From Callorhinchus milii (Eukaryota), in the NCBI RefSeq assembly GCF_018977255.1, contig NW_024704742.1, positions 69,380,001 to 69,444,000 of the forward strand: DNA of 64,000 bases, given 5' to 3'. Below, one piece after another: positions 1,633 to 28,200 of this stretch. The notes beneath the pieces were generated by a model, which was not told the origin of the DNA, made no database searches, and saw only the letters and a program-made list of their open reading frames with translations. Position 1 is the first letter of the stretch; each line of letters starts with the position of its first letter. Made by a program: the position numbers and the translations under genes.

Positions 1633-1696
1633 GGAAAAGTACAGTTTGGTTTGCTACCTCTCGTTGCTCCATTGCACGGACCAAACATTCATAGTA

Positions 1697-1763
1697 ATGG
1701 CATTCAATGGGAAATATGAACTGGAAAACCAGGACAACTTTGGACCATTTATGAAAGCTCTTG
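1697..1763 (+). CDS. FABP1: FABP1 copy A exon 1 (coding part)
   Basis: ATG at 1697, [22 protein letters not shown]+G, donor GTAAG at 1764. Confidence 0.93.
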
Positions 1764-4700
1764 GTAAGCTCATCCCTTTTTTATTCCTGATCAGCCAGGT
1801 ATCAGTAACATTTGTAGAAACATAGGTACTCAGGAACGGGAGTAGGCCATTTGGACCATCAAGCCCGTTGTAGTACTTTCCAAAATCATGGCCGATTTGC
1901 AACTCAATTTCACCTCCACGCCCTCTCTCTGTATCCTTTGATATCTGTCTATCAAGCATAATGACTATTTGCCTTTTAAATTCTTTAATTGACTCTGTCT
2001 CCACTGCAAGTGAATTCTACACTCCCACCACCCGCTGCATGAAAACCCATCAACAACAAATTCTATTTATACAGAGGCTTTCACATCAGGAGGACATCCC
2101 AAGGTGCTCAAGAGGGAAGGATCTGCACTCAAGCTGGGGATTGGAATCAAAAGGGGTGGAGGGCAAGGGGAGTGGAGATGGGAAGATGATCAAAGGAAGG
2201 GTTGAAGAGGAAGGTCTTCAGTCAAACCTTGAACAACAACAACAACATTCCATTTATAGAGTGCATTTCACGTCGGGAGGACGTCCCAAGGCGCTGTACA
2301 GTTGGGTCAGGACCCGAGCAGGGGGGAAATGGTCAGGGTGAGGGGAGGGAAGGCAGGGAGTGAGGAGGGGGTAGAGTCGAGAGGGGAGCTGAAGGCACGG
2401 TCAAAGAGAAAGGTCTTGAGACCAGCCTTGAAGGAGGAAAGGGAGGAGGCGGCGAAGGCACTGGGGGATAGAGTTCCAGAGCCTAGGGGCTGAGAGGCTG
2501 AAGGCCCGGCCACCAATGGTAGGGCAGTTGGGGCGGGGGATGTGGAGCAGACCGGAGCCAGAGGAACGGAGGGTATAAGCAGGTAGGTAGGGGGATAGTA
2601 GGTCGGAGAGGTAGGAGGGAGCGAGGACGTGAAGGTGTAGGTGAGGAGGAGGATCTTGAATTCGATCATCTGGCGGATGGGGAGCCAGTGGAGGTGAGCG
2701 AGGGTGGGAGTGATGTGGTCCCGAAGCCTGGTGCGGGACAGTACACGAGCTGCAGAGTTCTGAATGACCTGCAGCTTGTGGAGGGAGGGGCCGGGAAGGC
2801 CGGCGAGGAGAGAGTTCCCATAGTCCAGCCTTGAGGTGATAAAGGCGTGGACCAGAGTTTCAGCAGCGTGAGGGGTGAGGTAGTGCCGTAGTCTGGCGAC
2901 GTTCCGGAGGTGATGGAAGGCGGTGCCAGTTGTGGCGCGGATATGAGGGAGAAAGGACAGCTCAGGGTCGAACAGAACCCCGAGGTTCCTGACTGGCTTT
3001 GAGAGGTGGAGAGTGCAGCCTTGGATGCTGATGCTGTCAGCGCCTGAGGTGCGGAGGCGCTGACGTGAGCCAATCAGGAGGGCCTCAGTTTTGCGCACGT
3101 TGAGCTGAAGAAAGTTGTCTCTCGTCCAGGACTCGATGTCGGACAGGCAGGCTGTCAGGACATCGGGGGTCGTGGAGTTGAGGGTAGAGGAGGAAAGGTA
3201 GAGTTGGGTGTCATCCGCATACATGTGGAAGTTAACCCCATGTCTGCGGATGATGTCACCACAGGGGGAGCATATAGAGGGTGAAGAGGAGGGGACCGAG
3301 GACAGAGCCCTGAGGGTCACCGCACGAGACAGTGCGGGGGCCGGAGGAAAAAACATTCGTGGAAACAAAGTGAAGACGGTGGGAGAGGTATGACCTAAAC
3401 CACTCAAGGACAGGGCCTTGAAGGTTGAGGTGGGAGGACAAGCGGTGGAGGAGGATAGCGTGGTCGACCGTATCGAATGCTGCCGATAGGTCGAGGAGGA
3501 CGAGGAGGCAGAGGGAGCCCTGGTCACAGATGGTCAGCATGTCAATGGTGACCTTGACCAGGGCAGTTTCTGTGCTATGGGCAGCACAGAAACCCAACTG
3601 AAGGGGTTTGAATAATGAATGGGTGGAGAGGAAAGAGCACAGCTGGGAGGCGACAACTCGTTCCAGGACCTTGGACAGGAAGGGGAGGTTGGAGATGGGC
3701 CGGTAGCTTGATAGCTGCGACGCATCAAGGGAGGGTTTTTTCAAGGTGGGAGTGATGGTGGCAGTTTTTAAGGGAATGGAAACAGAGCCAGAGGAGAGGG
3801 ACAGGTTGATGATGTCTGTGATATGTGGGGCAAGGAGGTGGAGCTGGGAAATAAGGAGTGGAGTGGGGGTGGGGTCAAGGGAGCAGGTGGTGGGTTTCAG
3901 GGATAGGATGAGTTTGGTGACAGAGGGTGGGGAAACGGGTACGAAGGTGTGTAGGGGAGGATGGGTAATAATAATAATAATAATAATCCTTGCATTTGAT
4001 ATAGCGCGTTTCACGTCGGGAGGACGTCCCAAAGCGCTTCACAGAACACACTGTAAAGTGAATTGACTCTATATTTGTGGGCGAACGCGACAGCCAATTG
4101 CGCACAGCAATGTCCCACAAACAGTCGTAGATTAAAATGACCAATTTAATTATTGTTTTTTGTTTTCTTGGAGGGATTATTATTAGGCGTGTGGAGTAAG
4201 GAAACTTCCCCAAGGTTTCGCCCTGCCTGGAATTGAACTCAGGTCTGTCACTTGCAAAGCGAGTGCTCTAACCACTGAGGAGTCGGAGTGTGGGAGGGAG
4301 GGGGTGGGGGGGTGGGTGGATTTTGGAGGGGAAGTGACCGCGGAGCGAATTCCCTTGATTTTGGATTCAAGGAAATCCAGCATCTCCTCGCAGTGAAAGT
4401 TGGAGGAGATGACCTGCGCGGGGTGGCGGGGGGGGGACGGAGGAGTCGGGATATGGTAGAAAACAGAAGCCTGGGGTTGTTCTTCGCCTCCAGGATTATC
4501 CTGGAGTAGAAGGACGACTTGGCCAAGGCTAGAGTGGAGCGGTAGATTTTGAGGAGGTCCAGCCAGATTTGTCGGTGGACCGTTAGGCCAGATTTGACGC
4601 AGGTGCGTTCAGCGGCCCGCACCTGGCTCTTCAGTGAGCGGAGGTGGGTGGTGAACCAGGGGGAGGAGCGAGAGTAGGAGACAGTACAGGAGGTGATGGG

Positions 4701-7700
4701 GGCAAGAGTATCGAGTGTGGAGGAGAGGGTGTTGTGGAGGAGGGTGAGAGGAGAAGAGGGGTCAGTGAGGGTTGAAGGCCAGAGGGAGAGGAGTTCAGAG
4801 GACTCCAAGGCAGCGGTTAGGGATTGTGGGGGTAACTTCTTCCAGGGGCGGTAGAAGATGGTGGTGGGTCTGGTGGAGGTGGGGAGGGGGGTGGAGGTGG
4901 TGAAGGAGATGAAGTGGTGGTCGGAGATGGCCTTGTCGGTGATAGTGACATCCGAGACACTGAGGCCCCGGGTGATCACCAAGTCGAGTGGGTGGCCGTG
5001 ACTGTGAGTGGGGGAGTTGATGTGGAGGGAGAGGTTGAGCGAGGAGAGCAGGGAGGAGAAATCTGAGGAGATGGAGCAGGAGGGGTGAAGTGCAGGTTGA
5101 AGTCGCCCAGGATGATGAGGCGATCAGAGCAGAGGCAGAGAGATGTAAGAAGTGTCGAAATATCGGAGATGAAGGTGGGAGAGGTTTTAGGGGGCCGGTA
5201 GAGGAAGAGGATTTTGAGTGAGAGGAAGGAGGGGTGGGAGAGGGTGAGGTGCTCGAAAGAGGGGAAAGAGCCAGAGGAGTAGGGGAATAGGGCGAGTGGT
5301 GTCCTTGAGATAAGGGCTACACCACCGCCACGGCGGTTGGGGCAAGGGATGTGGTGGGAGGTGTAGCCGGGTGGTGTGGCCTCCGTGAGGGGGAAGGTGT
5401 CACCTGGGGTGAGCCAGGTTTCCATTAAGGCCATGATGTAAACGCTCTCATCAAGGATCCAATGGAGTCGGGCGAGAGTGGGGAAGATGGGGTCACGGAG
5501 TTTAGTTCGGGAGAGGACACGGGCTGCAGAGTTCTGGATTATCTGCAGCCTGTGGAGGGAAGGGTTGGGAATATTGATAAGCAAGGCATTTGCATAGTCA
5601 AGCCTGGAGGTGATGAAGGCATGAACAAGAGTTTCAGCGGCCTGAGGGATGAGCTGGTGGCGGAGTCGGGCAATGTTCCAGAGAGTATTAGGCCAGGTGA
5701 AGCCAAGGCTTGGGGTCTCCTGTAGTTGGAGCACTTCTGGAGTCTAACCAGCTAAACCGGAAAGCATTGAAAGTTGTGGGTTCAAGTTCCTCATAGGGAC
5801 TTGAGCTCTTATGGCAGGGCTGAAGCTATAGTGCAGTACTGGGGGTGTAAATAAAAAGAATCTTTGCATTTGATAAAATGCCTTAAATGTCACGTCGTCA
5901 AGATCTCGCAAAACTATTCACGGGATGTACTGTAAAGTGGTGCGACTGTATATTGTTTAGGCAAGGCCCGTAGCCAATTTTGCACACAGCACACAGCAAT
6001 ATCCCGCAAACAGCAATGAATGATCAATTTCATTTCGGGATTGTTGGCCAGGGCACTGGGAACAACTCCCTTCCCTTTTCATAAATCAAGAAATATTCAA
6101 TCAATAAAACGTATTTTGTTGGGCGACTATAACGGTTGGCTAACATTGGCCTAGATTGTGAGCTCAAAATCCCAATGTGGGGCTTGAACACACAGCCTTC
6201 TGACTCAGGGGCGACCATGCTACCAATGAGCCAGGCTGACACCTTCCAACAACAACAAGATTACATTTGTATAGCCCCTTTCCACCCTCTTGGTCTGATT
6301 TTCAGGACTCTCGGACGAGATGATCGAGAAAGGCAATGACCTCAAGAGCGTCTCTGAGATCGTCCAGAACGGGAACCACTTCAAGATCACGGTCACTACA
6401 GGCACCAAAGTGCTGACCAACGAGTTCATCGTTGGCCAGGAGACCGACGTTCAAACTCCCACCGGTGCAAAGATGAAGGTAGTGAACATCTCTCCGGCTC
6501 TCTTGGGTTTCGGTGACTCGATTCTTGCCAAGCAGACATAATTTCAATTGCTGGAAATTAGCTTTCTGAGTTTATTGCTGGCTTTACACACTTTTTTTAT
6601 TTTCTTCCGATGAGACATTAAGCGCTCAGCCTCCGAGACGCTACCTCATGTGAAAGGCACTCTATGAATGCAAGCTGTTGCTGCTGCTGTTAAACTGGCT
6701 ATTCAGGCAGATGTTAAAAATCCTGAGGCACTCTTCGAAAAGAGAAGGGAGTTTCTCCCGGTGTCCTCGATAATTTCTCACAAATAAAAACTATTCTCAC
6801 AAACAATAATCATTCACTTTGACTGTTTGTAGGGGCTGCCGCATTCGTCTACAAAATACACAGTCAATGCCCTTTACAGTAAATCGTACGGAATTTTCTC
6901 TCAAAGTTGGAAAAATAAATATCACAATTCTCAGTCACTAAAGCCTGGGTGTAAGCGACGGCCTCCCCTGCCCTCCGCCCCTCCTCTCCAGCACAACAGT
7001 TTGAACAGATCAATTTCAAGATTGTCACCTTCATGACCTAGCACCAGCCTTACCTCTCCAGGCTGCTCACAGCCCATTCCTCTACCTGCTCCCTTTGCTC
7101 AGCCGGCTGCGTCCGACTATACATCCCTTGTTCCTTCTGCTCCACCATCAGCAGCTTTTAGTCACTACGCTTCCGAAACACTGGATCTCTTCTCCTCAAT
7201 CCTTTCCAGCTCCCTCCTTGCCCATCTTCAGATTGCACCTGAAGACTTTCCTGTTAGACCAGTCTACGGTCACTTCTCCTCTTTCCCTGGCTCTGCATCA
7301 GACTCCACCACTGTTAATCGCTCCAAGGTGCGCTCTGCTTGAAGAACGCTGTATAAGAACAAGTTAATTTTAAGATTTAATTGGTCGTCATTGTTTTTAC
7401 AACTGGATATGGAGTTCCAGCGCCATTTCACCAAATACCCGGAATGAGGCCTGCCGTCCTTCCTAATTATCTTGTGTCTTGTCAGCGCCTTGGGACATCC
7501 TCCCAATGTGAAAGGCACGATACAAATGTAATTTGTTTTTGTTGTTATCTAGGCTATAATCAACCTTGAAGGGACCAATAAACTTGTGTTGAAGGCGGAA
7601 AATGTAACCTCCATCACAGAGCTGACTGGAGATAGGCTGGTGAATGTAAGTCTCTGTTGATTCTATTTCTGGTTTCAAATACTTCAACCTTTGAATGGAT

Positions 7701-10620
7701 GGAATGCCTCCACCTCCTTACCCCATCCTGTGTTCTTAATTACACCACCTCTCCCCCTCCCCCCCGGCTTCTCTGCCCCACCATCAGCAGACGACCAGTT
7801 CACAAAGGCGTGGTCTTGGCAATCTAATTTACTGGTTTTCTTTGACGGTGTGACAAGGGAGCTTGATAAGGGTAAGGTAAGGCTGTGGATGTTAAAAATC
7901 TGGATTTCAGTAAGGCCTTTTGTGCAGTTCGCCTTGAGAGGCTGTACTGAAAGTAAAGAAAGCGGGAATCAGTGGAGGTATATTACATTGGCTATGCAAC
8001 TGGTTGACTGCAACAACCCAGAGGATGGTGGTTCAGGGAATGTCATCAGACTGGGAAAATGTTACCAATGGAGTTCCACAAGCGTCTGTTTTGGGATCTC
8101 TTTTGTTTAATATTTTCATAAATCATCTGGAACTAGGAGTCGCAAGCACAGTGGTTAAGTTTGCAGATGACACCAAACTAATGAAGGTGGTAAATTGCAG
8201 AGCTGAACAAGATAGGTTACAGGAGAATTTGAACATACTTGGGAATTGGGAAGATTGGTTGGAGATGAAATTCAATGTGGAGAAATGTAAAGTATCGTGG
8301 AAGGGATTATTATTTGAACGGAAGGAAAATAATATGTATGGAAAATGAAAAGGTCCTGGGGGTCCTGATTGACAATAAATTGAAGTGCCACTGTATAAAT
8401 CCTGCCACTGTATAAATAATTGGTGAGACCATACTTAGAGTACTGTGTACAGTTCTGGTCGCCGCAGTACAAAAAAGATATTGGAGAAATCAAGAAGATA
8501 CAGAGGAGGGAAAACAAAATGATTGAGGGAATAGAAGGACTGGACTATGAGGAGTGACTAAGTAAATTGGGCATATACACACTGGTAAGAGAAGATTGAG
8601 AGGGGATATGATTGCTGTCTTTGAGATTCTAAAGGGCAAGACTATACAGATCATGACAGGCTGTTTCAACTTGTCCAGAGTAGTAAAACCAGAGGCCCCA
8701 GCCTGCGATTGAAGGGGGAAAATTCAGAACAAATCTACGCAAACACTATTTAAGTAGGAGTTCGCTCACTGAAAATAGTAAACCTGTAGGAACAGGCTCC
8801 CTAGGGAGACGGTTGAACAACAACAACAACAAGATTATATTTGTACAGCGCCTTTCACGTTGGGAGGACGTCCCAAGGTGCTGGACAGAGTACAGCATTT
8901 CAAACCTGAGCAGGGGTTGGGGGGTAAGGGAAGGGAGGGGAAGAGGAGGGTCTTGAGGGCGGGACTTGAAGGAGGCTAAGGAGGGATCGAGGCGGAGTAA
9001 CTGGGGGATAGAATTCCAGAGGTTGAAGCAGGAAGTGTTGATTCTTTCAAACACAGATTAGATAGTTTTCTCTTAAGAAATAATATTATAGGATATAGTA
9101 CATAGGTAGTTCAGGAAATGTGACCGCCAGGAAGGTGGAAGGTGAACTAGATGGACCTTGGTCTTTTCTCATCCAGTTTTCTTATCTTCTTAATAACACA
9201 TCAACAGAGGGTAAGGTAAAACTATTCCTTTTATTGTTGTGTTGTTGCAATAGTAACTTTTACTCATGGCCTGGGCCAATAGAAAAGTGTGGAAATATTT
9301 GCCGAAAATTGCCAAACAAATTTTGCGGAAAATGGCAGGGAGTTGATTTGTGCTCTTGAAGTACATTTTAATGCCAACCTACGTTTTTTCACTTTATTGA
9401 TAAAAGAAAACATGAGGAAATAACACATATTAGATTGTTGCAAAAAAAATGTTAGTTGCTTCTTTAACAAAAACTGGGTTTTCATTTTTTTAGGTGGGCA
9501 GGAGGGGGGGACACCAGCGAGGCTACAGGAGCTCTCAGGGTTCAGCACCGCACACATACCCAGAGAGGCAGAAACACACACACACACAGAGACACAGAGA
9601 GAGAGAGACACACACACAGAAAGACACACAGACACACACGCAAACACAGAGAAAGACACACACACACATACACACAGACACACAAACACACACAGAAAAA
9701 GATACACACACAGAGACACACACACGCACACACACAGAAAAAGACACACACACACAGACACACACACACAGATACATAAAAACACACACACAAAAACACA
9801 CACACACAGAGACACACACACACACACACACACAGAGAATGACACACACACAGACACACACAGACACACACATAGAGACACACACACAGAGAACGACACA
9901 CACACACACACAGAGAATGACACACACAGACACACACACACACACAGACACACAAGCACACACACACGCCCATTTGCTGCTTGCGCCACACCGCGCCTTG
10001 TGCGTCCGAAGCTGCCCCCACCCACAGTGAGGGGCAGAGGCCCGCGCCAAAAACTATATTTATGGCAGGTTTGTAGCGGAGGAAGGTGTTTATAGAGGGT
10101 TCCATAAGACAATAATAATAATCCTTGCATTTAATACAGCGCCCTATCAAATCATTGATTCATCTCAAACCGCTTCACAGAATAGACTGTAAAGTGAATT
10201 AACTGTATATTTTGTGGGGGAAATTTGGCAGCCCAATTGCACACAGTAGTGTCCCGTAACTTGTCGTAGATTGAATCACCAATTTATTATTTTTTAATTT
10301 GAAACGATTGTTAACCCAGAAAACAACCTTTCAATCGACCAACAACCGAGTTCCAACTTACTGCTAGATGCGTGTGGAGTAAGGACACTTCCCTAAGTTT
10401 CGCCCTGCCCAGGAATGAACCCAGTTCCTCTCACTTGCAAGGCGAGTTCTTTTACCAATACGCTATAGGACTGCACAACAACAACAACAACTTGCATTTC
10501 TATAGCAATTTTCAGGCAGGAGAGCGTCCCAGAGCACTGCAAGTAAACATTAACTTTTTGTTTCAGACAATGACAATCGGAAACATTGTGTACACGCGGC
10601 AGAGCAAGAAGATCTGCTGA
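1697..10620 (+). CDS. FABP1: Liver-type fatty acid-binding protein, copy A; join(1697..1763,6306..6478,7553..7645,10567..10620), 128 aa
   Basis: Spliced product [128 protein letters not shown] aligns without gaps to mammalian FABP1. Coding exons 67/173/93/54 nt, all GT-AG. S39, R122 and S124 equivalents kept. Gene lies next to SMYD1. Confidence 0.93.
2232..5460 (-). mobile_element. L2-clade LINE, long ORF2 remnant (APE endonuclease + RT), interrupted by a SINE
   Basis: - strand frames give ETWL, GGGVAL, YRPP, GDFN, DHHFI (APE); [35 protein letters not shown] (RT); (GTT)n tail at 2232-2247; frameshifted. Confidence 0.92.
3966..4279 (-). mobile_element. tRNA-derived SINE inserted in L2
   Basis: (ATT)n tail at 3966, head at 4279; splits the L2 ORF2. 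Confidence 0.88.
6306..6478 (+). CDS. FABP1: FABP1 copy A exon 2
   Basis: TTTTCAG acceptor, 173 nt ([10 protein letters not shown]...TGAKMK), GT donor at 6479. Confidence 0.93.
7553..7645 (+). CDS. FABP1: FABP1 copy A exon 3
   Basis: CTAG acceptor, [12 protein letters not shown]...GDRLVN, GTAAG donor. Confidence 0.92.
7790..9190 (+). mobile_element. CR1-clade LINE 3' fragment with nested L2 tail
   Basis: GVPQASVLG...KFADDTKL...[19 protein letters not shown] motif; L2 tail at 8816-9030. Confidence 0.85.
9573..9968. repeat. Imperfect (CA)n/(GA)n microsatellite
   Basis: CACACACAGA-type units. Confidence 0.95.
10107..10452 (-). mobile_element. tRNA-derived SINE (long form)
   Basis: Head at about 10452, extra CTAGCAGTAAGT segment, (ATT)n tail. 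Confidence 0.8.
10567..10620 (+). CDS. FABP1: FABP1 copy A exon 4 (coding part)
   Basis: TTTCAG acceptor, [17 protein letters not shown]. Confidence 0.92.
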   Translation, partial: TMTIGNIVYTRQSKKIC

Positions 10621-11000
10621 ACTCTGACTGGTGGATTTTTTGCGTCTTATTTTACTGCATTATGTATAATAACAATCCTTGCATTTGATATAGTGCTTTT
10701 CACGTCTCCTCGACATCTCAAAGCGCTTCATAGAATAAATAGACTGTAAAGTGAATTGACTGTATATTTGTGGGCGAAATGTGGAGGATGTGGAGGAAAG
10801 TGGAAATATGATATGTAATATTATCATATTGCTCAAAGCAGTCCATAGAGTCAATCGTTATCAATGACCTTAGGATTGGTAGAGGGTGGGAGTGGGTTGT
10901 TTGGCTTCCACAATCACCTTTGACCACATATCTGGTTGATATGATAATTATCACCAGTGCTTATATCACATCTCTCATTCTCCCACACCTCCATCTATGT

Positions 11001-11006
11001 AATAAA
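11001..11006 (+). terminator. Candidate polyadenylation signal, FABP1 copy A
   Basis: TGTAATAAA context like copy C; an alternative AATAAA lies at 10734-10739 inside a SINE fragment. Confidence 0.4.
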
Positions 11007-14330: not shown

Positions 14331-15130
14331 TTATATAATATATCTATATAATATATCCTCCATCTCTATTGACCCCAACTCCAGCTTGGGTCCAAATCCC
14401 TGACTGTCCAAGGTGAAAGGTGCTATACAAATGTAATTTGCTGCTGCTGTTGTTGCACGTGTGTATGCATGTTATGGAGGCATGTAATTGAGGGTTACAT
14501 TGGTCTCAGCAATGAAGCATTGATGAGCCTGACTGTCAACAACAACAACAACTTGGATTTATATAGCGCCCTCCATGCCGGACGGCGTCTCAGAGCACTT
14601 CACAGTAATGGATCCTGGGGCCGAGCCAGGGGAAGGAGGTGACCAAAGGCACAGTCGAAAAGAAAGGTCTTCAGCCGAGACCTGAAAATAGGAAGAGACG
14701 GGGCGAGGCAAAAGGAGAGAGGAAGGGAGTTGAGGGATTGACAGTCACCATTCCCTCAACTCCCTCAAACAAAGAATACTCAGGTCATAATAATATAATA
14801 ATAATCTTTGTACATGAGCACCTTATCACCTTGTCGAGATATCTCAAAGCTCTTCACGAGAAAGTGATGTGACTGTGTATTTTTGTGAGCAAACAGGGCA
14901 GCCAAACTGCACACACCCAATGTCCCACAAACACCCACAAAATGAATGGCCCATTTTATGTGGGGGATTGTTGGCCAGGATACTGGGAGAAACTCCGTTC
15001 TCTATTCAAGTTGAGCCATGGGATCTTTGTGGTCCACCTGAGGTTAGTAACAAAGTGTTGACAGGTGCTCCTTGGGTCAGTGGTAGCACAATTGCCTCTG
15101 ATCCAGAAGATTGTGAGTTCAAACTCAACA

Positions 15131-15441
15131 GTCCTGTAGCTCAGTGGTTAGAACAATCGCCTTGCAAGTGAGACACCTGGGTTCAATTCCAGGCAGGGTG
15201 AAACCTTGGGCAAGTTTCCTTACTCCACACGCCTAATAATAATCCCTACAAAACAAAACAATAAATATATTGTTAATTTTCAGTCCACGACTGTTTGTGG
15301 GACACTGCTGTGCGCAATTGGCTTCCGGGTTCGCCCACAAATATACATTCAATTCACTTTACAGCATATTCTGTGAAGCGCTTTGAGACATCTGGAAGAT
15401 GTGGAAAGCGCTATATCAAATGCAAGGATTATTATTATTAT
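15131..15441 (+). mobile_element. tRNA-derived SINE (short form) nested in an older DeuSINE-like element
   Basis: GTCCTGTAGCTCAGTGGTTAG head to GGATTATTATT tail. Confidence 0.85.
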
Positions 15442-15680
15442 AACAGAATATCAGAACTTGAACTCACATAGTCTACGCTGACACTCCAATGCAGTGCTGG
15501 GGTGAGCTGCATTGTTGAAAGTGCTGACCTTCGGTTGAGACATTAAAGTGAGCCATGGTTCAAGAGAACTTTAAAGATCTCATTGTGCTTTCAAAAAGAA
15601 ACGGAAATTTCTTGGGGTCCTGGCCATCCCCCAAATAAAATGTGTTAGTCACTCCATGGCTGTCTGCGGGACATTGGTGT

Positions 15681-16119
15681 GTGCAAACTCACTGCTGTAT
15701 TTGCCCACAATACACAGTAAATCCTGTGAAACACTTTGGGGTGTCCTCCCAATGTGGAACGATGACACTCAAATCCAGTGCTGGAGCAGTGTGATGGGGG
15801 GAGTGCTGCATGGACGGAGGTGCAATCCTTCAGATGGAGACATTAAACTGACTTTCTGTCTGCTGTTCAGTCAATCCTTGCTGTACTAAATGTGAGGATT
15901 ATCATTATTATTATCATAGACTCAGCACCTTCAGGAGAGGAGACACATCTGAGGTTAGGGTACAAGCGCATTGCTGAGTAAGCACTAAGGCAATTACCTT
16001 GTATAATGAGTTAATAATTGAATAAGAGTCATATAACAATGGGCCCACTTATCACATGAAGGTGCTGCAATGCCTTGAAAGGAGAGCAGTAATTTGGAAA
16101 GGGGCCTTCTACTCCATCA
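15681..16119 (+). pseudogene. Orphan duplicate of the FABP1 copy B promoter/5'UTR with no coding exon
   Basis: Collinear with 16903-17343; ends at ACTCCATCA where an antisense L2 tail begins; TATA-like TTTAAA changed to TTGAAA. Confidence 0.75.
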
Positions 16120-16902
16120 ACAACAACAACAAGAGTCCATTTATAGAGCGCCTTTCACGTCGGGAGGACGTCCCAAGGCGCTGTACAGTTGGGTCAGGAC
16201 CCGAGCAGGGGGGAAATGGTCAGGGTGAGGGGAGGGAAAGGGAGGGAGCGAGGAGGGGGTAGAGAGTCGAGAGGGGAGCTGAAGGCACGGTCAAAGAGAA
16301 AGGTCTTGAGACCGGCCTTGAAGGAGGAAAGGGAGGAAGCGGCGAAGGCACTGGGGGATGGAGTTCCAGAGCCTCGGGGCTGAGAGCCCGGGCACCGATG
16401 GTAGGGCGGTTGGGGCGGGGGATGTGGAGCAGACCGGAGCCGGAGGAACGGAGGGTACGGGCAGGCAGGTAGGGGGATAGTAGGTCGGAGAGGTAGGAGG
16501 GAGCAAGGCCGTGAATGGTCTTGTAGGTGAGGATGAGGATCTTGAATTCGATCCTCTGGGGGATGGGGAGCCAGTGGAGGCGAGCGAGGGTGGGAGTGAT
16601 GTGGTCCCGAAGCCTGGTGCGGGACAGTACACGAGCTGCAGAGTTCTGAATGACCTGCAGCTTGTGGAGGGAGGTGCCGGGAAGGCCGGCGAGGAGAGAG
16701 TTCCCATAGTCCAGCCTTGAGATGATAAAGGCGTGGACCAGAGTTTAAGCAGCGTGAGGGGTGAGGTAGTGCCGTAGTCTGGCGATATTCCGGAGGTAAT
16801 GGAAGGCGGTGCCAGTTGTGGCGCGGATATGAGGGAGAAAGGACAACTCAGGGTCAAACAGAACACCAAGGTTCCTGACTGGCTTTGAGAGGTGGAGAGT
16901 GC
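16118..16902 (-). mobile_element. 5'-truncated young L2 LINE
   Basis: Nearly identical by eye to 2232-3016; (GTT)n tail. Confidence 0.9.
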
Positions 16903-17233
16903 GTGCAAACTGACTGCTATGTTCTCCAACAAATACACAGTAACTGCACCTCATACTAAATCTTGTTAAGTGCTTTGGACGTCTTCCCGACGTGAAAGGA
17001 AAACATTCAAATGCAGTGCTTGGATAGTGTGATGCTGCATTGCTGGAGGTGCCATCCTTCAGGTGGAAACATTAAACTGACTCCCTGTCTGACTGTTCAG
17101 TCAATCCTTGCTGTACCAATTGCAAGGATTATTATTATTATCGACTCAGCACCTTCAGGAGAGGAGACACGTCTGAGGTTAGGGTATAAGAGCATTGCTG
17201 TGTAAGCACTAAGGCAATTACCTTGTATAATAA

Positions 17234-17304
17234 GTTAATAATTGAATAAGGGTCATATAACAATGGGCCCACTTATCACATGAAGGTGCTGCAATCCCTT
17301 TAAA
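17234..17304 (+). promoter_or_regulatory. FABP1 copy B proximal promoter: HNF1-like, GATA and TATA-like sites
   Basis: GTTAATAATTGAA 17234-17246, GGGTCA half-site, CTTATC (GATA) 17272-17277, TTTAAA 17299-17304 in the same context as the copy A TATA. Confidence 0.6.
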
Positions 17305-17357
17305 GGAGAGCAGTAAGTTGGGAAGAGACCTTCTACTCCATCAGACAGAGAGAAAGA

Positions 17358-17433
17358 ATGTCAGTCGTGTCCTTCACTGGGAAGTATGAGCTGGAAAGCC
17401 AGGAGAACTTTGAGCCCTTTATGAAAGCTATCG
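17358..17433 (+). CDS. FABP1: FABP1 copy B exon 1 (coding part)
   Basis: [25 protein letters not shown]+G, donor GTGAG at 17434. Confidence 0.9.
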
Positions 17434-20400
17434 GTGAGCTAATCTCCTTGAAATGCAGTAATTCTGTACACTCTGTGTGGGTGTGCATATGGGGTTGGGG
17501 GTGCGTGTGTGCGGGTGGGGAGCTGTGGGTGGGAACTGTGGGTGTGCATATGGTGAGGTATTGTTATTCTGCCTCTTGCCAATTTTTGACCTACAAGTGC
17601 CTGAGTGTGTGTGAGATATTTCTGCAAATTGAAACCGAGAGATAGGTTAAAGACCAAGTCTTAAGGTATTGCCCAACCGTAGTCTAAACTGCCACTCAAA
17701 TGTAGTACTGGGGGGGAGGGGAGATAAGTTGATGGAGGAGCACTGCTTTGTTGGATGAGACATTAAAATGTGTTCCTACCCATCTGTTCAGGTGGCACCA
17801 TTTAAAAAGAGAAAGAAGGTTTGTGGAGTCCTGTAGCTCAGTGGTTAGAGCACTCGCTTTGCAAGCAAGAGACCCGAGTTCAATTCCAGGCAGGGCGAAA
17901 TCTTGGGCAAGTTTCCTTACTCCACACGCCTAATAATAATCCTTCCAAAAACAATAATAAATTGGTCATTTTCAATCTACGACTGTTTGTGGGACATTGC
18001 TGTGCGCAATTGGCTGCCGCGTTTGCCCACAAATACAGTCAATTCACTTTACAGTGTGTTCTGTGAAGCACTTTGGGACGTTCTCCCGACGTGAAAAGCG
18101 CTATATCAAATGCAAGGATTATTATTATTATCAAGGTTCTCCCGGTGTCCCAGCTAATAATCCCTGAATAAAATTTATCAATCAACTTTGTGGCTGTTTG
18201 AGACATTAATTGCTGCAAATTGTCTGCCTTGTTTGCCTACACATAAATGTTACAGTAAACTCTGAAGCGCTCTGAGGCAGTTTGAAGTGAAAGGAGTATA
18301 TCAAATGCAAGGATTATTATTATTATTAGCATCACGAATAGTGTGTGTGCCTGAGATACCGGGCTGCTTGGGAAGTCTGCGTGGGATATGAAATTGGCCG
18401 TACTAAATGCGAGGATTATTATTTTTATTAACTTCATGATTGTTTGCGAGACACTGCTGTGCATTTGCTTACAGAATACACAGTCACTATGCTTCACAGT
18501 AATCCTGTGATGCACTTTGATATGTCCTCCTGACATGAAAGGTGCTGTATAACATGGAAGGATTATTATTAGTATTATTATGACCTTTAATCATTTCTAG
18601 GTCTCTCAGATGAGATGCTTAAGAGAAGCAAAGACATCAGCAGAGTTTCTGAAATTGTCCAAAACGGAGACCATTTCAAAATAGTGACCAAAGTTGGCAG
18701 CGATGTGCACACCAATGAATTCACTCTGGGCAAAGAGACTGACATTCAAACCTACACTGGACAGAAGATCAAGGTAACTCATTCCATGGGCCACGCCATG
18801 TGGATTAGCTTCCTGTTAGCTCGGCTCAGTTTTATATCACTCACCAATGATCCAAAGGTTGTGGATTGAAGCCCACGTGATAGGGAGACTTTAAATCTTA
18901 TGGTCTCAGGTGACCATGTCAGATTAGAAGGAACTTTTTCACAGAGTGGTGAATGGTGGAATTCTCTGCCAGTCAGTTGTTGCGGTGGCAACCATGTGCG
19001 CATTCAAAAAAAATGACTAGCCACGTAGTTAAGAGACAATAACATAAGTCCTGTAGCGTAGTGGTTAGAGCACTTGCCTCGCAAGCGAGAGGATCCGAGT
19101 TCGATTCCTGGGCAAGATGAAACCTTAGCCAAGTTTGCTTACTCCACACGCCTCTTTACCTAGCTATAAGTAGGAACCCCGTTCGTAGTTGATTGGCGGA
19201 TCGCTTTCCGGCAGTAATCTCTTCAAAAAATAATTAAAAACAATTTGTGTGCAATTGGTTGCCTCCTTTTGCCCACAAAATACGCAGTCAATTAATTTTA
19301 CGGTATATTCTGTGAAGCGCTTTGAGACATCCTAATGATGTAATAAGGCGCTATATTAAATGTATGGATTATTATAATAATAGTTATGCAGAAGATATGG
19401 ACAAAAAGACGAGTTTATGGGACTAGGGATCTGATCTAGGATGTGGATTATAAATACTGGCTAGACTGGATAGGCTAAATGGCCTGTTTCTGAGCTGTAG
19501 CTTTTATGGATCTGTGATAACGAGCTGTACCAAATGCAAGCATTATTTTACTCAACTGGGTCCTCTTGTTTGAAGGACTAATGATGGATCATCTTTTTCC
19601 TTAACCAGGCAATAATCACCCTTGAAGGCAATAAACTGATCGGCAAAATGAAAGAGATGAGCTCAGTTACCGAACTGCTGGGAGACAAACTGATTAGCGT
19701 AAGTTGCTGTAACTGGGGGTGGTTGTGGGTCTCGTGATTGAGAGCTTTGACCAAGGTCACCCATCTCGTGGCGGATTGTCAGCACGTGAAATGTGTCTAA
19801 TGGGGGTCACTGAGCAAGCTAAATTAAGGGGGAGAAATTCATTTTACCTGGGTTGAAACTTACTTTGTTTTCTTGCCGTTTTGCAGCATGCAGATTTTGT
19901 TAGTGTTTTAAATCCAGCTTTTTTTTTTGATGCTGTCTTTCCTCTTTGACCATGCTTTTGGTCAACTTTGTTGATTTATCACAAGCTGAATTTCAATGTA
20001 ACACTGCTGAGATCAACAGTAAACTAGTTGCTGCAGCACACACAAAGAATACAAGCTGAATAGACGTCTGTATCAGTGCAGCTGAATTTGCTAAGGATTG
20101 ACATGTGTCTGATTTACAATGCAATACAATTTACACTTGGTGAGCGCCTTTCATATAGGGAGGATGTCCCAAAGCGCTAGACAATTCTGGCTGAGGACCG
20201 ACTCTGGGTGGGGGGTAGGCTGGGTGGTGAGGAGAGGAAAGATGACTGAAATGCGTTTCAAGACATACCTTGCAACGACAAAATTACATTTGTATAGCGC
20301 CTTTCACGTAAGGAGGACGTCCGAAGGGAGGGAATCGGAGGCACTTCGGAATGGAGTTCCAGAGAGCAAAACGCTGTCGCTGAAAGCCTTTCTGCCAATA

Positions 20401-20574
20401 AGCACTGTGGGACTTGGACTGTTCTAAGTTAGGATGAATAAAGCATAGGAGGTGTAGTTGGCCTGTGTCCGCTCAGCAAAGGGAATGGTCAGATTGAGTT
20501 TTTTTGTTATCTCGTTCCAGACAATGACTGCCGGAGATATCGTTTACAAGAGCATCAGCAAAAGGATCAGCTGA
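17358..20574 (+). CDS. FABP1: Liver-type fatty acid-binding protein, copy B; join(17358..17433,18601..18773,19609..19698,20521..20574), 130 aa
   Basis: Spliced product [130 protein letters not shown]. Intact frame, GT-AG introns in FABP phases, AATAAA at 20639. Confidence 0.92.
17823..18131 (+). mobile_element. tRNA-derived SINE (short form), full length
   Basis: TAGCTCAGTGG A box, GTTCAATTC B box, Ala-like TGC loop, L2 tail. Confidence 0.9.
18601..18773 (+). CDS. FABP1: FABP1 copy B exon 2
   Basis: TTTCTAG acceptor, 173 nt, GTAAC donor. Confidence 0.92.
19047..19380 (+). mobile_element. tRNA-derived SINE (long form)
   Basis: Head plus CTCTTTACCTAGCTATAAGTAGGAACC segment and tail. Confidence 0.8.
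19609..19698 (+). CDS. FABP1: FABP1 copy B exon 3
   Basis: ACCAG acceptor, 90 nt (one codon shorter than A and C), GTAAG donor. Confidence 0.92.
20521..20574 (+). CDS. FABP1: FABP1 copy B exon 4 (coding part)
   Basis: TTCCAG acceptor, [17 protein letters not shown]. Confidence 0.92.
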   Translation, partial: TMTAGDIVYKSISKRIS

Positions 20575-20638
20575 ATTTAGAGCAAAGTGCCGTGTGCAGT
20601 TGTTAATGTGTGGCTTATTGTACAACAAACTAAAATAC

Positions 20639-20644
20639 AATAAA
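20639..20644 (+). terminator. Polyadenylation signal, FABP1 copy B
   Basis: AATAAA about 65 nt after the stop, followed by T/GT-rich sequence. Confidence 0.7.
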
Positions 20645-22552
20645 CTGATTTTTTTCCTGACACACAGGTGGTTGTTCCCTTTCCTTAGCCCTTTGAGATA
20701 ACACAGTGCATTTTCAACTTGTAACAAAATTTACATATCCATAGAGCACAGAAACAGGCCACTCAGCCCAACCCATCTGTGTTGGTGTTAATACTCCACA
20801 TCAGCATCCGCCCACTCCTTACTCCCTCCGATACCCTTCGGTTCCCTTCTCCCTCACTTGTCTATTTTTCTTTTTTGTGGGGGGAAAATTGGTTGTCAGG
20901 CCCTGGCAACTCCTTACCTCTCTGTTCTGCTCACACCGCACTCCTCTACCCGGCACCCTTGCTCAACTGGCACAGATCTGCTACATGACCATCTGCTCCA
21001 CCATTGCCAGCCACTGTGCCCCGAATCTCAAACTCCCTGTCTCAATCCCTTTGGCTTGTCTCCATCTTCATAGATGCCTGTTTTCAAATCACACCTGAAG
21101 ACTTGGTTCTTGAACTGTGCCTTCAGTCACCACTTCTCCTTTCCAGCTTGGCATCATGCCACACTGCCGTTAGTAATAATCCTTGCATTTGATATAGTCT
21201 TATCCTGTCTTTGAGACATCTCAATGCAATCAAAGAATTTACTGTAAAGTGAATTGACTGTATATTTTGTGGGTGAATCGCACTAGCCAATTGTGCACAG
21301 CTGTGTCCCAAAAACAATCATGGATTGAAGTGACCCATTTATTTTTTTAAGAAATTATTACCCCTGAAAAAGTGATCTAGCAATTAATTAACAACCAGGT
21401 TCCTGCTTACTGCTAGGTAAACAGAGGTTGTGTGGAGTAAGGAAACTTGCCCAACATTTCACTCTGCCGGGAATTGAACCCAGGTCTTTCGGTTACTGGA
21501 TGGATGTCCCAAAACCTTAGGCAAAAAAAACCTTACTCCACATGCCTCTGTTTACCCAGGAGTAAGTAGGAATCTAGTTGTTCGTCGTAATTCCCCCAAA
21601 AAAGAATTTGGACACTCAATCAACGACTGTTTGTGGGAGACTGCTGTGTGCAATTGGCTGCTGTGTTTACCCACAAAACAGTTAATTCACTTTACAATAT
21701 ATAGTATTCTGTCCAGATGTCTCAACAACATAAGGTGCTATATCAATTGCAAGTATTATATTTATTATAAGTTTAACTGTATTTAGACATCCAGATGTCC
21801 AGAGAATTGGTGTGAGTGAGCGCAATCATTTTCATAGCAGATAATGATCTATCACCATGTTCGGTATGACATCTTCTGAAACATGATGGTGTGATGAGCC
21901 AAAATGCATCTCTGACAACTTGTTTCATTTCCTCTGTAGTCTCATATCAGTGTTTTGTAATAGGAGGGTAAGAAGACTTTGTGATTACCCTGCACATTGA
22001 GAAGCCAGGCCCTAGTGAAATAACAGTCTGAAGACAGCACAGTCTGAGTGCAGCAGAAAAAGAAAATGCTTCAATTCAGTCCGTTACCTTTTCAGCTGCA
22101 GAATGTACTGAGATAATCAGAACTCATAAACTCATCTAGTTAGCTTCCATTACATCAAATTGGAAACAGAACACTTTCAATTAAAAACCTCTGCTACAAT
22201 ATTGCTCCTGGGATTGTCATTGGGCTTCCTATAAATTGTCTCCTTCAATCTTCTCCCATTATTCTGTGTTTCTGTTGAAGGTGTGAGTAAAATATTTTCT
22301 CTGTTTTTGAACAAAAATCTCAGCTTCTTGTTTGTCATTATTTGTTTGATGAAGATTTGAGCAATTTCATAATCTAGCTGTGATTTGTAACAGAATTTGA
22401 TTCCATACTGTTTCCACAAAATCTACTTTTTAGTTTAATTACAAACTCTCCTGCCTTTTCTAAATTTCTGAATGACTTTAAGAGTGGCTACAAAATGTAT
22501 TTAAGGCTTGAGTCTGTTTTTAAGGCCTATATACCAAGCCTTTTTATGGTGG

Positions 22553-23313: not shown

Positions 23314-23380
23314 ATGGATTTCTCTGGCCAATATGAGCTCCAAAGCCAGGAGAATGCTGTACCATTCATGAAGGCCATGG
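23314..23380 (+). CDS. FABP1: FABP1 copy C first coding exon
   Basis: [22 protein letters not shown]+G, donor GTAAG at 23381. Confidence 0.9.
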
Positions 23381-26300
23381 GTAAGATTTGGGAGGCTTAT
23401 TGTATGTTCAAGTCTTGATTCCATGTTATGATGTCCACAAATTGATGACTTGTTTTGGGGTGGTGGGGGCAAGAAGCTGGAAGTCAAGTGCAGAAGAAAT
23501 TGTACTCCCTGTGAATTGATGTCGGGAATATCTGCTGGAAAACTAATGCATCAAGCTCATCACTTATCCTGGGTTTGGGCTACTGAGAGCAAGGACAAGA
23601 ATGATCTGAAATACCTCATTGGTGTTTGAGAGCACAGCTGTTGTGCATTCAAACTGGGTTTCCTCACTGCCTTTCGTAGCAGGTGTGGTGGGGGTTAGTG
23701 GTGGTGAAATGAAAATGACTTGGTGCCTTAATGCACTTGTTAAGTCTGACTGATGAACCCATGGATAAGCCAAGGCCAACTGTGTAGACATATGTGTCTT
23801 TCACTTTATTCTATTCATAAGAACCTTTTTTGGAATATTAAGCCAAATACTGTCTTATTTTCTCTTCTCCTTTTAACTAACTGTTGTCCTGGATAGATTT
23901 CAATAAGTCACTTGACTGGGTGATCCTATCTTGTCAATGCTATTATGGGTTGTGATCTCTTCTTGTGTTTTGCAGTATTTTTTTGCCGCTTTCTACATAT
24001 TTATTCATGCATTAAATAAGCAATAATTTCATCATTCAATCCACGACTGTTTATGGGACACTGTTTGCGTAATTCGCTACTGTGTTTTGCTCACAAAAAT
24101 ATATAGTCAATTCACTTTGCAGTATATTTTGTGAAGTGCTTTGAGACATCTCAACAATGTGATAAGATGCTGTATCAAATGTAATTATTATTATTATAAC
24201 ACAGCATTGCCCTGCTGCTAAAGCCACTAAGTCAGGGCAGTGACTTAACCCAAAAATTCTAGTTTCTAGAAACTCAAACTCCTCCCACCAACACCCTTTT
24301 TTTGGTCACCTTTTTTCCTCCACTCCTTCGTCAACTTCCTCCTCTCCCAGCTCTGGTTCCCAAGTGATTCTAAGGAATGCTTTGAGGTTTCCTACAAAAT
24401 AGTCACTACATATTATTGAAATCCTGTGAAGGGTTTGAAGATATTCTGAGGTGTTGTAACAACATGAAAATACTGTATGAAATGCAAGGATTGTTTCTTT
24501 AGGACTCTCAGATGAGATGATTGGGAAAGTCAAGGACCTCAAAAGTACAACTAAAATTGTCCAAACTGGACAAGATATCCTAGTTGCCATCCATACTGGC
24601 AGTCAAGTCCTTGTCAATGAATTTACCCTTGGGAAAGAGATGAATATGGAAACTCCAACAGGAGACACAGTCAAGGTAATGTTACTGAAAAGTTGAAGCT
24701 CAGATCCAAACCTTTCAATGTCTAGTGCCTTGGGACATTCTCCCGACCTGAAAGACACTGTATAAATGTAAGTTGTTGTCCCATCACTCACTCGGTACCA
24801 ACTGTCCCATCACTCATTCTCTCCGCACCAACCACCTCCGAAAGCCAAACACCTCTTCCCCCTCCCTCATCCATATCCTCTCCAATGCTTGCCTCTCCTC
24901 AAACTCCACAGTCATTTCTTCCCCACAACCTCAAATCCTCCCTATATCACTCCCACCTCCATTTCCCCACCACCACCACCACCAAACCTGTCTCCATTTC
25001 CCTCTAAAATGTCTGCTCATTGATATTCTTGAGTTTACAGAAAGCTGCCTCTCCTCTGGCGAGAAGCCTCTCCCTTGTTGAAGCCTCCCCTCCTGGCTGC
25101 ACCATTCATCACACTCCCTGCCCCAACCAATGTGGTGGCAAGGTGGCCCTCATCTCCCTTGGCTTATCCCCCTATTCCGCTGGCTGTTTCTCCTCCTTTG
25201 AGCACCTCACCCTCTAATATTCCACCTCTCTCTCCCTCAAAATTCTCCTAGTTTACCGCCCCCCCCAAACCTCCTGGCTCCTTCCTCACTGATATCTCCT
25301 CTCATCTCTGTCCCTCTGCACTGAACACCTGCTCGTAATGGGTGATTTCAACCTCCACTTTAATTCCCCTTGCACCATCTCCTCGGGTTTCACGATTTAC
25401 CATCAGCTGTGGCTTGAGCACCTCATACCCCAAATACAGTCGAAACCCTTGTGCATACCTCCCGCCTAGATTACTCAAACACACTCCTTGCCAGTCTCCC
25501 TAGCTCCACTATTCAAAAAATCCAGCTCATTCAGAACTCTGCTGCCCACATATTGACCCAAACCAAACTCCGTACCCCCACCTCACCAGTTCTGGCCAGG
25601 CTTCACTGGCTCCCTATCACCGAATGGATCGACTTCAAGATGCTCACACTCGTGTTTGAATCCATTCACTCCCTGGCTTCTTCGACCTCCTCACTCCCCG
25701 ATCCACCACCAGGCGCCTCCACTCGACTGGCACCAGCCTCCTGCTTGTCCCTCACACCCTCCATTCCACCATTGGAGGTCGGACTTTCAGCCACTGTGGA
25801 AAACTCTCCCTCAACCCCTCCACCTTGCCCCTCTCTCCCTTTTTTTAAAATCCAGCCTGAAAACCTTCCTTTTTGACCGTGCATACGGTCACCTCCCCCA
25901 TCCCCCTCCTTCCACACACCCCCCCGGCTTGGAGTCTGGCTCTGCGCTCTAAGACACTACCCTGCATGGAGGGCATTATATAAGTGCAAGTTGTTGTTTA
26001 ATCCCCACGTCAGGGTTTTGAACTCCATCTATACTGACACTCAAGTGCAGTGCTGGGAGAAATGCTGCATTATTCAAGGTGACGTCCTTTGAATGAGATG
26101 TTAAACAGGTCCTGTCTGCTGTTCAGGACATTAAAATTATGTGGTTACAAAAGAGAAGGGAGCTTGTCCTAGTGTCCTGGGCAATAATCCCCCCCTCCCC
26201 AATAAAACTGGTCGCTCACTTCACAGCTATGTGATGTTTGTGCAATGTTGTTGTCCAAAAATTAGCTTCTGTGTTGGTCTACAAAATAGGCACTAAACAT

Positions 26301-28200
26301 TATAGTAAAATCCTATGAAGTACTGTGAAATGCCTTGACAATGTGAAGGTGCTATATTAAATTTTGTTTTTATTGTACAAAGTTAAATCTGCTGATCACT
26401 TTATTTGTTTGCAGGCTATGATGAAACTCGAAGGTGACAATAAACTAGTTGTCACCACAGCAGCCATTACTTCTGTTGCAGAATTAGTTGAGGATCGGCT
26501 GATTAATGTAAGTTTCAGTTCTACATCCTCCTACACAGTCTGACACCTGTTAAACGTCAGAAGGTTGAGCAGGATATGATTACAGTCTTTAAGATTCTAA
26601 AGGGACTATATAATGCAGACCATGATGAGCTGTTTTATCTTGTACTGAGCAGTAGAACCAGAGGACACTAGTTGCGATTCAAGGGAGGTAAAATCAGAAC
26701 AAATCTGTGGAAACACTACTTCAGTGAGCTAGTAGTAAATGTATGGAATAATAATCCTATAATCCTTGCATTTAATCTAGCGCTTTTCACGTTTTCTAGA
26801 CGTCTCAAAACGTTTCACAGAATATGCTGTAAAGTGAATTGACTATATATTTGTGGGCGAACAGGTTCCCAAGGGAGACAGTGGAAGCAGAAAGTATCTA
26901 TTCTTTCAAGAATAAATTAGATTGATTGCTGTTAGGAAATAATATCTCAGGATACAATATATAGTTTGGGACGTGACATGTGACTGTCAGGATGGTGGAA
27001 GAAGAACTGGATGTCGCCTGCAAATTCGTATGTTCTTATTTCTGGCATTTAGCCTTCTCATCCTTAGGATGAGAAATTAAACCAAGGTCTTGTCTGTGCC
27101 TGTTCAGGTGGACATTAAAGATCCCAATGGCCCTACTCAAAGTGAAAGGTACTTCTCCCAGTGTCCTGGCTATCAATCCCCCAGAATAAAATTGGTCATT
27201 CCATGCTGTTTGTGGGACATTAGTGTATGTAAAATAAAATGCTGCTTTCGCCCGCAAATAGTCAACACGGAAGGGGTTGCTGTGGTTTGGGGTATAGGAA
27301 CAGACTTCTCTGATCAAGGGACAAATGTGGTGTGGAAAGGGTGGTAACTAACTCTCTCACCTTTTCTCCTCCCTCCCCCCCTCCTTCAGTTCCAAGTTCT
27401 TCCTCAAATCCCCTATAGCACCTGGGCACTACATAAATATTACACCCACAAGAGCTGAAATAGGAATCTAGTTGAGACCAGTGACTTGAGTCCTTAAAGA
27501 TAGAGGTATAGATCGAGGTATAATTCAATGAAAGGAACATCACTCTCTTCCATTAAGTGTAGTGTCAGTTATCCCTTGAGCCAGCAACTGCCAGAAAGGT
27601 TCTCCGATTGAGATTTGCCTGTGGTACAAAGAAACAAAACCGAATCACACCCATAAGTGGAGCATGTTGGAAAGATTGAGCTCCTAGCGACAGCTATGCT
27701 TTCAATCCTCGGTTGGCTGGGACCGGTGTTCCAGCACTTTCCATTCTGAGGATTGTGATCTGCCCTCATTAGAGGAAACCGAGATACTATAATGTAGAGC
27801 TCACTTGTGCACTTGGTCACTAGGCTCAAGCCAGGTTTGCCCTGCAGAGAGGCAACCTGGTCACCTGACTTGCTCAGATGGTCATGAAGACAGGGTTCAG
27901 GTCTGCATTGTCCTTTGATAGTTTGGGGCCTGGAAGAGTTTGTGGGGAATTGGGGCTTGTCTGCAGGACAATGCATGTTCCCTAAATGGAATGTATTTGG
28001 TCCAATTTGTTTAATGTGGGTGAGCAGGCCTAACCTCGCTCACCAATAAAATAAATCACTGTCTTCCATTGACTAAACTACTAAAGTACTTGATTATAAC
28101 CTTGTGTGCTTTTTGGTTTCAGACAATAACTTTTCAAGGCATCGTTTACAAGAGAATAAGCAAGAAGGTTATAGACCCTGTTTCAGAGAATGGCCAATAG
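23314..28200 (+). CDS. FABP1: Liver-type fatty acid-binding protein, copy C; join(23314..23380,24503..24675,26415..26507,28123..28200), 136 aa
   Basis: Spliced product [136 protein letters not shown]. Exons 67/173/93/78 nt, GT-AG, overlapping AATAAA pair at 28260-28269. Confidence 0.9.
24503..24675 (+). CDS. FABP1: FABP1 copy C coding exon 2
   Basis: TTTAG acceptor, 173 nt, GTAAT donor. Confidence 0.9.
24990..26000 (+). mobile_element. Degenerate L2 fragments (APE part + 3' end)
   Basis: [23 protein letters not shown]...LHWLPI motifs; GTTGTT tail. Confidence 0.75.
26415..26507 (+). CDS. FABP1: FABP1 copy C coding exon 3
   Basis: TTTGCAG acceptor, [15 protein letters not shown]...DRLIN, GTAAG donor. 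Confidence 0.9.
28123..28200 (+). CDS. FABP1: FABP1 copy C coding exon 4
   Basis: TTTCAG acceptor, [25 protein letters not shown]. Confidence 0.88.
   Translation, partial: TITFQGIVYKRISKKVIDPVSENGQ

What the first reader, a model, noticed from the sequence alone, without database searches (positions are those of the whole stretch)
20551..20553. FABP1 copy B has lost the fatty-acid carboxylate-binding arginine (R122S)
Seen: exon 4 reads VYKSISKR (AGC at 20551) where A has VYTRQSKK and C has VYKRISKK. B also has N111S, G32S, G37R and a one-residue deletion in exon 3, yet frame, splice sites, promoter and poly(A) signal are intact. Known: R122 with S39/S124 anchors the carboxylate of the inner ligand in FABP1, and Arg-to-neutral changes accompany neutral-ligand binding in cellular retinol-binding proteins of the same family. 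Inference: B may carry neutral or non-carboxylate lipids (alkylglycerols, squalene, sterols or bile alcohols).
Basis: partly seen in the sequence, partly recalled or inferred. Interest (0 to 1): 0.7.

Follow-up and report, generated by a model that had tools for sequence, protein, structure and literature searches.

The report
Relocated arginine in shark fat-binding protein
One of three neighbouring fat-carrier genes of a chimaera has lost the arginine that normally grips a fatty acid's acid group. It has gained a new arginine on a nearby strand of the same pocket, and a group of sharks made the same swap separately, so the grip has probably moved rather than vanished.

Summary
AGC at 20551-20553 puts Ser at human-FABP1 position 122 in copy B of an elephant shark fabp1 tandem cluster. 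Named database proteins carry the same Ser. The neutral-ligand reading is only partly supported. It adds an Arg on the cavity face of strand B, two residues before S39. Among 213 FABP1-type proteins, R37 occurs in 0 of 188 with R122 and in 9 of 12 with a neutral 122. A different paralogue made the same swap in galeomorph sharks (S37R plus R122Q on one branch; 8 of 8 readable rows). One clade of it with B is rejected (p-AU 4e-5). B lacks the CRBP residues that hold neutral head groups (K40, Q108). Best reading: a convergent second-site swap that keeps a cationic anchor for anionic lipids, with altered geometry. The side-chain geometry is inferred, not measured, and no ligand is shown. N111S and the loop deletion are common variants. 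I found no paper on this in the library searched.

The parts
20551..20553 (+). Codon AGC = Ser at human FABP1 position 122 (B residue 124); the lost Arg
18642..18644 (+). Codon AGA = Arg at human position 37 (B residue 40), first residue of strand B; the gained, probably compensating Arg
   Evidence: (0 of 112 others)
18648..18650 (+). Ser39, carboxylate-site hydroxyl, retained
20557..20559 (+). Ser124, carboxylate-site hydroxyl, retained
17358..17433 (+). fabp1 copy B exon 1 (coding); starts 3 codons upstream of the usual Met, which is GTG here
18601..18773 (+). copy B exon 2; carries K31R, G32S, K36S, S37R, T53K, T54V, K57D, and H59 and Y74 (each 0 of 112 others except G32S, 1 of 112)
19609..19698 (+). 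copy B exon 3, 90 nt (one codon shorter than A and C); G93, S111
20521..20574 (+). copy B exon 4 (coding part with stop)
17234..17262 (+). HNF1-like site and TATA-like box of copy B (consensus matches only)
20639..20644 (+). AATAAA polyadenylation signal of copy B
1697..10620 (+). fabp1 copy A (S37/R122, canonical site); NP_001279764.1
23314..28197 (+). fabp1 copy C (S37/R122); XP_007896233.1; its galeomorph-shark orthologues are R37/Q122

Best explanation
Copy B is an intact FABP1 paralogue in which the pocket arginine has moved from strand J (position 122) to strand B (position 37) by a reciprocal Ser/Arg exchange. Each change is one base from the codon in a neighbouring copy (Ser AGC/AGT to Arg AGA at 37; Arg AGA to Ser AGC at 122). 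Shown: the two changes, their mutual exclusion across FABP1s and a second independent origin. Inferred: Arg37 reaches into the space left by Arg122 and, with Ser39, Ser122 and Ser124, still holds an anionic head group. B would then remain a carrier of fatty acids or other anionic lipids, with a shifted head-group position and altered selectivity. The likely order is loss of R122 first, then the compensating gain, since S37/S122 proteins exist and no FABP1 with R37/R122 was found.
For: R37 in 0 of 188 R122 rows, 9 of 12 neutral-122 rows and 1 of 13 K122 rows. The galeomorph C-paralogue stem carries six parsimony changes, among them S37R and R122Q. All 8 of 8 readable galeomorph rows are R37/Q122 and all 8 of 8 other C rows (squalomorph sharks, batoids, chimaera C) are S37/R122. 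Two further catshark records agree. One clade of B with those sharks is rejected with columns 37 and 122 removed (p-AU 3.8e-5). All 5 parsimony gains of K/R at 37 sit on non-R122 backgrounds, which carry 13% of substitutions. The idea was noted, before the shark case appeared; out-of-sample p is about 0.027. The AF2 model (pLDDT 92) has strand B starting at this Arg, in register with S39 and I41, and matches human FABP1 at TM 0.93-0.94. Position 37 aligns with Pro38 of FABP3/4/8-type proteins, which surrounds the ligand together with Met40, Arg126 and Tyr128 in mouse FABP4 (PMC3795557 passage).
Against: No coordinates were returned, so the distance between Arg37 and the 122 site is not measured. 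There are no binding data. Three of five switches to a neutral 122 have no R37: agamid P0113 (with unnamed P0275), croaker P0078 and catshark P0034, so compensation is not obligatory. A blind scan would expect about 3.4 residue states with two or more origins on those five branches; the statistic rests on prior naming and on two events. Exclusion could be purely steric, with R37 tolerated once R122 is gone. CRBP2 shows that a basic residue on strand B (K40) can serve a neutral ligand. One distant unnamed protein (P0171, first domain, 30% identity) aligns as R37/R122. B also has K36S, so a local register change is conceivable.
Confidence: 0.58

Rival explanations
1. One reading: B has switched to neutral lipids (alkylglycerols, monoacylglycerols, sterols, squalene). 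Arg37 would then hydrogen-bond a glycerol or hydroxyl head, as K40 does in CRBP2.
For: S122 replaces an Arg kept in 109 of 112 FABP1s. CRBPs pair Gln at this site with neutral ligands. CRBP2 uses a strand-B lysine for 2-AG hydroxyls, and a CRBP2-glyceryl ether structure exists (7jvy). R122Q raises binding of bulkier ligands (review passage). Ether lipids are abundant in ratfish liver (abstract of PMC2920550). B has further pocket changes (H59, Y74, G93).
Against: An Arg is regained in the pocket twice independently. B lacks K40 and Q108 equivalents (S39, T102). S39 and S124 are kept. The outer-site contacts K31/S56 are kept as R31/S56.
Confidence: 0.17
2. Structural fill-in or relaxed drift: after duplication R122 was lost at modest cost, and Arg37 only fills the space or keeps the fold stable. 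B is a somewhat weaker general FABP1 with no new specificity.
For: R122Q only moderately lowers binding in FABP1. S37/S122 and S37/M122 proteins exist. B has a long branch (0.34-0.39) and 13 departures at 59 conserved columns against a bony-vertebrate median of 1.
Against: R37/Q122 is uniform across galeomorph orders. B keeps all 12 invariant columns, an intact gene and transcript-type records. C and D paralogues show 13-21 departures that are shared across species, so divergence here is not decay.
Confidence: 0.22
3. Sequence error or private allele at 20551.
For: Contig laying gave no verdict at this codon.
Against: The RefSeq NP_ record and three GenBank protein accessions carry S122 and R37.
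Confidence: 0.02

Closest known systems
FABP1 (liver FABP, iLBP subfamily II; human 3STM/3STK, rat 1LFO)
   Same: Four-exon gene, 58-60% identity, same ten-strand barrel (TM 0.93-0.94), S39/S124/T102 kept, SMYD1 neighbour (the human linkage is recalled).
   Different: R122 is Ser and position 37 is Arg (0 of 112 others); K36S, T53K, K57D, H59, Y74; three extra N-terminal residues.
Galeomorph-shark C-type fabp1 paralogue (e.g. Heterodontus P0282, Chiloscyllium P0284, Cetorhinus P0290, Mustelus P0293)
   Same: Arg37 with a neutral residue at 122 and S124 kept.
   Different: Gln rather than Ser at 122, T39, A102, N111 kept, acidic C-terminal tail. Separate origin. I found no study of it.
Cellular retinol-binding proteins CRBP1/CRBP2
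   Same: Neutral residue at the strand-J arginine position and a basic residue on strand B.
   Different: Their basic residue is K40 (FABP1 39) and they use Q108; B has S39, T102 and Arg at 37, where CRBP2 has Gln. About 35% identity.
Engineered rat FABP1 R122Q (Thumser 1996, seen only through review PMC10197203)
   Same: Loss of the strand-J guanidinium.
   Different: No second-site Arg37; binding fell only moderately.
Zebrafish fabp1b.1/fabp1b.2 tandem duplicates (PMC7193176 passages)
   Same: Tandem duplication of fabp1.
   Different: fabp1b.1 keeps R122 (P0167); fabp1b.2 was not examined.

Membership tests
FABP1 | iLBP fold: ten-strand barrel with helix-turn-helix lid; Pfam PF14651 | tested here: met
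FABP1 | Closer to FABP1 than to FABP6, FABP10 or CRBP | tested here: met
   150 bits against human FABP1, 101 or less against bile-acid binders, 55 or less against CRBP2
FABP1 | Four coding exons with the usual lengths (67/173/93/about 54 nt) | tested here: met
   (B: 76/173/90/54)
FABP1 | Linkage with SMYD1 | tested here: met
   SMYD1 first coding exon at 54929-55066, minus strand; that this linkage is typical is recalled
FABP1 | Canonical S39/R122/S124 carboxylate triad | tested here: not met
   S39 and S124 kept, R122 is Ser, Arg at 37. B is an FABP1 by descent with a variant site.
FABP1 | Binds two long-chain fatty acids | not testable with these tools
   needs a binding assay or a structure
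CRBP-type neutral-ligand site | Neutral residue at Q128 (FABP1 122) | tested here: met
CRBP-type neutral-ligand site | K40 and Q108 head-group contacts | tested here: not met
   B has S39 and T102

The most novel reading that the evidence does not exclude
Cartilaginous fishes have an unstudied radiation of at least four FABP1 paralogue groups whose anion site was rewired repeatedly: Arg moved from 122 to 37 twice, and Lys122 occurs with Arg124 or Trp124 in another clade. Each variant would be tuned to a different head group. Copy B, with Arg37 nearer the portal plus His59, Tyr74 and Gly93, would be a carrier for a chondrichthyan-specific anion such as bile-alcohol sulfate, or for very long polyunsaturated or lyso/ether phospholipids.
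Probability: 0.25. Interest if true: 0.72.

Novelty: new variant of a known kind. Interest (0 to 1): 0.5.

Why it matters
The strand-J arginine is treated as the hallmark of iLBPs that bind acidic ligands, and its absence is read as a switch to neutral ligands. A natural, twice-evolved move of that arginine to position 37 would show that this rule can mislead. It gives a clean two-site test of compensatory epistasis in a small soluble protein with many solved relatives. It also points to uncharacterised FABP1 paralogues in animals that store lipid in the liver and use unusual lipids and bile salts (general knowledge).

Tried and rejected
Own-genome search: no genome is held. Sequencing runs: no RNA holder listed. 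Laying four runs over 1500-21400 at 85% likeness was swamped by repeats and showed nothing at 20551; one contig of X1 spans exon 2 with no differences, but X1 may be the source sample. No orthologue of B from another chimaera was found (best other hit 62% identity; 50% representatives), so the age of B's swap is unknown. B's place among the paralogues is unresolved: grouping with A, D or E was not rejected (p-AU 0.48, 0.35, 0.25), and FastTree put it with D, which changes only whether 122 went R>S or K>S. The AF2 model gave no coordinates. A second fold was not available. The ESM Atlas returned only FABP clusters and held no model. Earlier findings: none. Tissue of the B cDNAs: supplements of PMC3466250 were unreadable and may bear on expression; the Nature 2014 supplement had no hit. 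PMC6416440 is not held. N111S and the exon-3 deletion were rejected as signals because they are common. The blind co-substitution scan is not significant family-wise. No complex prediction was run, since fatty acids cannot be scored.

Full report
Setting. The window holds three tandem four-exon FABP genes on the plus strand (A 1697-10620, B 17358-20574, C 23314-28197). The first coding exon of SMYD1 lies on the minus strand at 54929-55066. Exon 2 of B matches a named Callorhinchus milii protein at 100%. The spliced B equals P0002 (NP_001279758.1, AFK10887.1, AFM86050.1), C equals XP_007896233.1, and A reads the same as NP_001279764.1 (by eye). All belong to PF14651. B scores 150 bits against human FABP1 and at most 101 against bile-acid-binding FABPs. 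A survey paper lists two C. milii fabp1 proteins, one of them B (K4G6D8); the passages I saw concern gene counts and synteny and do not mention residues (PMC7193176).

Observation. Codon 124 of B is AGC at 20551-20553 and aligns with human R122. Frame, GT-AG introns, promoter-like motifs and AATAAA are intact. Three GenBank protein accessions and a RefSeq NP_ record have the same Ser. That such accessions derive from cloned cDNAs, probably the project of PMC3466250 (passages seen; supplements unreadable), is my recall. Among 112 other FABP1s aligned (112 of the 119 other listed hits; seven long-isoform rows were left out), position 122 is R in 109, S in 2 and M in 1. N111S (16 of 112) and the exon-3 deletion (44 of 112) are ordinary.

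Position 37 is Ser in 95 and Gly in 17 of those 112, and never Arg; B has Arg (AGA at 18642-18644). A and C have Ser codons there, and C has AGA at 122, so each change is one base from a neighbour's codon. In the AF2 model (pLDDT 92; TM 0.93-0.94 to human FABP1) this Arg opens strand B, in register with S39 and I41. Both contact ligand in human FABP1 (bioRxiv 2024.07.25.605175, passages). The position aligns with Pro38 of FABP3/4/8-type proteins. Pro38 surrounds the ligand together with Met40, Arg126 and Tyr128 in mouse FABP4 (PMC3795557, passages), touches oleate in FABP3 (PMC4775160, table passage) and contributes to inhibitor binding in FABP4 (PMC6164837, passages). Position 37 therefore faces the same sub-site as 122. 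This is inference, because the tool returned no coordinates.

Comparative test. I noted the swap idea. One search then turned up a bamboo-shark protein with R37 and Q122, and a targeted search filled in the cartilaginous-fish paralogues. In the clade of copy C (support 100/100), 8 of 8 readable galeomorph rows are R37/Q122. All 8 of 8 others (Heptranchias, Pristiophorus, five batoids, chimaera C) are S37/R122. Two more catshark records are R37/Q122. Parsimony puts six changes on the galeomorph stem, including S37R and R122Q. With columns 37 and 122 removed, a clade of B plus six of these sharks is rejected (p-AU 3.8e-5, 34-row tree), so the swap arose twice. Across 213 FABP1-type proteins, R37 is found in 0 of 188 with R122, 9 of 12 with a neutral 122 and 1 of 13 with K122. 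Dropped before that count: P0304 and P0307 (R37, exon 4 unreadable), two mislabelled contaminant rows, and P0149 (an incomplete model of the same protein as P0284). All five gains of a basic residue at 37 fall on non-R122 backgrounds, which hold 13% of substitutions, although three of them are in one clade. The chance of two of three R37 gains falling on the five neutral-122 branches is 0.0017 with B included and 0.027 out of sample.

Results against. A blind scan would expect about 3.4 such doubly shared residue states by chance, so the weight lies in the prior naming, the location and the uniform retention across shark orders. Three of five neutral-122 switches lack R37: an agamid lizard with a second, unnamed relative, a croaker record with an adjacent odd Pro, and one catshark E-type protein whose sister species keeps Arg. 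One distant 30%-identity domain aligns as R37/R122. Mutual exclusion could be steric only. B's position among paralogues is unresolved, and no other chimaera orthologue was found.

Mechanism. Most likely (0.58), Arg37 supplies the guanidinium formerly given by Arg122. With S39, S124 and the new S122 hydroxyl, B would still anchor an anionic head group, displaced toward the portal. The outer-site contacts K31 and S56 persist as R31 and S56. K36S, T53K, K57D, H59, Y74 and G93 reshape the portal and cavity and may alter selectivity. The neutral-ligand reading (0.17) leans on CRBPs, which have Gln at this position (PMC10197203, passages). CRBP2, however, holds 2-AG and retinol through K40 and Q108 (PMC7065888, passages), where B has S39 and T102. 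The same review reports that R122Q only moderately lowers fatty-acid binding and raises binding of bulkier ligands, and normal FABP1 already binds monoacylglycerols, cholesterol and bile acids (PMC10909404, passages). The K40 case does show that a strand-B cation can serve a neutral ligand, so this rival is not excluded. Fill-in or drift (0.22) fits B's long branch but not the conserved shark state.

Novelty. The gene is annotated. I found no paper on R122S in this protein, on Arg37 or on the shark paralogue swap in ten full-text searches (most hits were judged from listings and abstract starts only). The library lacks most subscription papers, including the older shark-liver FABP and FABP1 mutagenesis work that I only recall. 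Earlier scan notes held nothing. Verdict: a real new variant of FABP1, more interesting as a convergent relocation of the ligand arginine than as a loss; the ligand is unproven. Interest 0.5.

Noticed in passing
window 15677-16119: Upstream duplicate of copy B's promoter region: 81% identical over 461 bases, and 93% over the proximal 213 bases including the HNF1-like and TATA-like sites. It ends just short of where the start codon would be, at a high-copy repeat that looks like a LINE fragment.
   Followed up: partly
window 17358-17369: B starts at an ATG three codons upstream; the Met found in 112 of 112 other FABP1s is a Val codon (GTG) here.
   Followed up: no
P0131, P0272, P0276-P0281, P0287, P0288, P0292, P0294, P0356, P0371: A shark/ray fabp1 clade with no copy in this window has Lys122 throughout, with Arg124 or Trp124 in galeomorphs and Arg/Lys/Asn at 37: a third rewiring of the head-group site.
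   Followed up: partly
P0113, P0275: An agamid lizard FABP1 and an unnamed close relative have Ser122 with Ser37 and D34T: loss of the arginine without the swap.
   Followed up: no
window 23314-28197 (copy C): The C clade has an acidic C-terminal extension, E40K, T102A and a bulky residue at 32 in chimaera, sharks and rays, so copy C is an ancient, separately conserved paralogue.
   Followed up: partly
window 10594-10596 (copy A, position 121): Thr121 in the window and NP_001279764.1 but Lys121 in AFK10903.1: an allele or a clone difference next to R122.
   Followed up: no
window 54929-55066, minus strand: First coding exon of SMYD1, facing the fabp1 cluster.
   Followed up: partly
P0326, P0329: Two FABP1-like database proteins on 400-base contigs carry a bacterial species label; apparently host contamination.
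   Followed up: no
P0369: A catshark gene model fuses an A-type and a C-type copy into one 237-residue protein, probably a read-through annotation across the tandem cluster.
   Followed up: no
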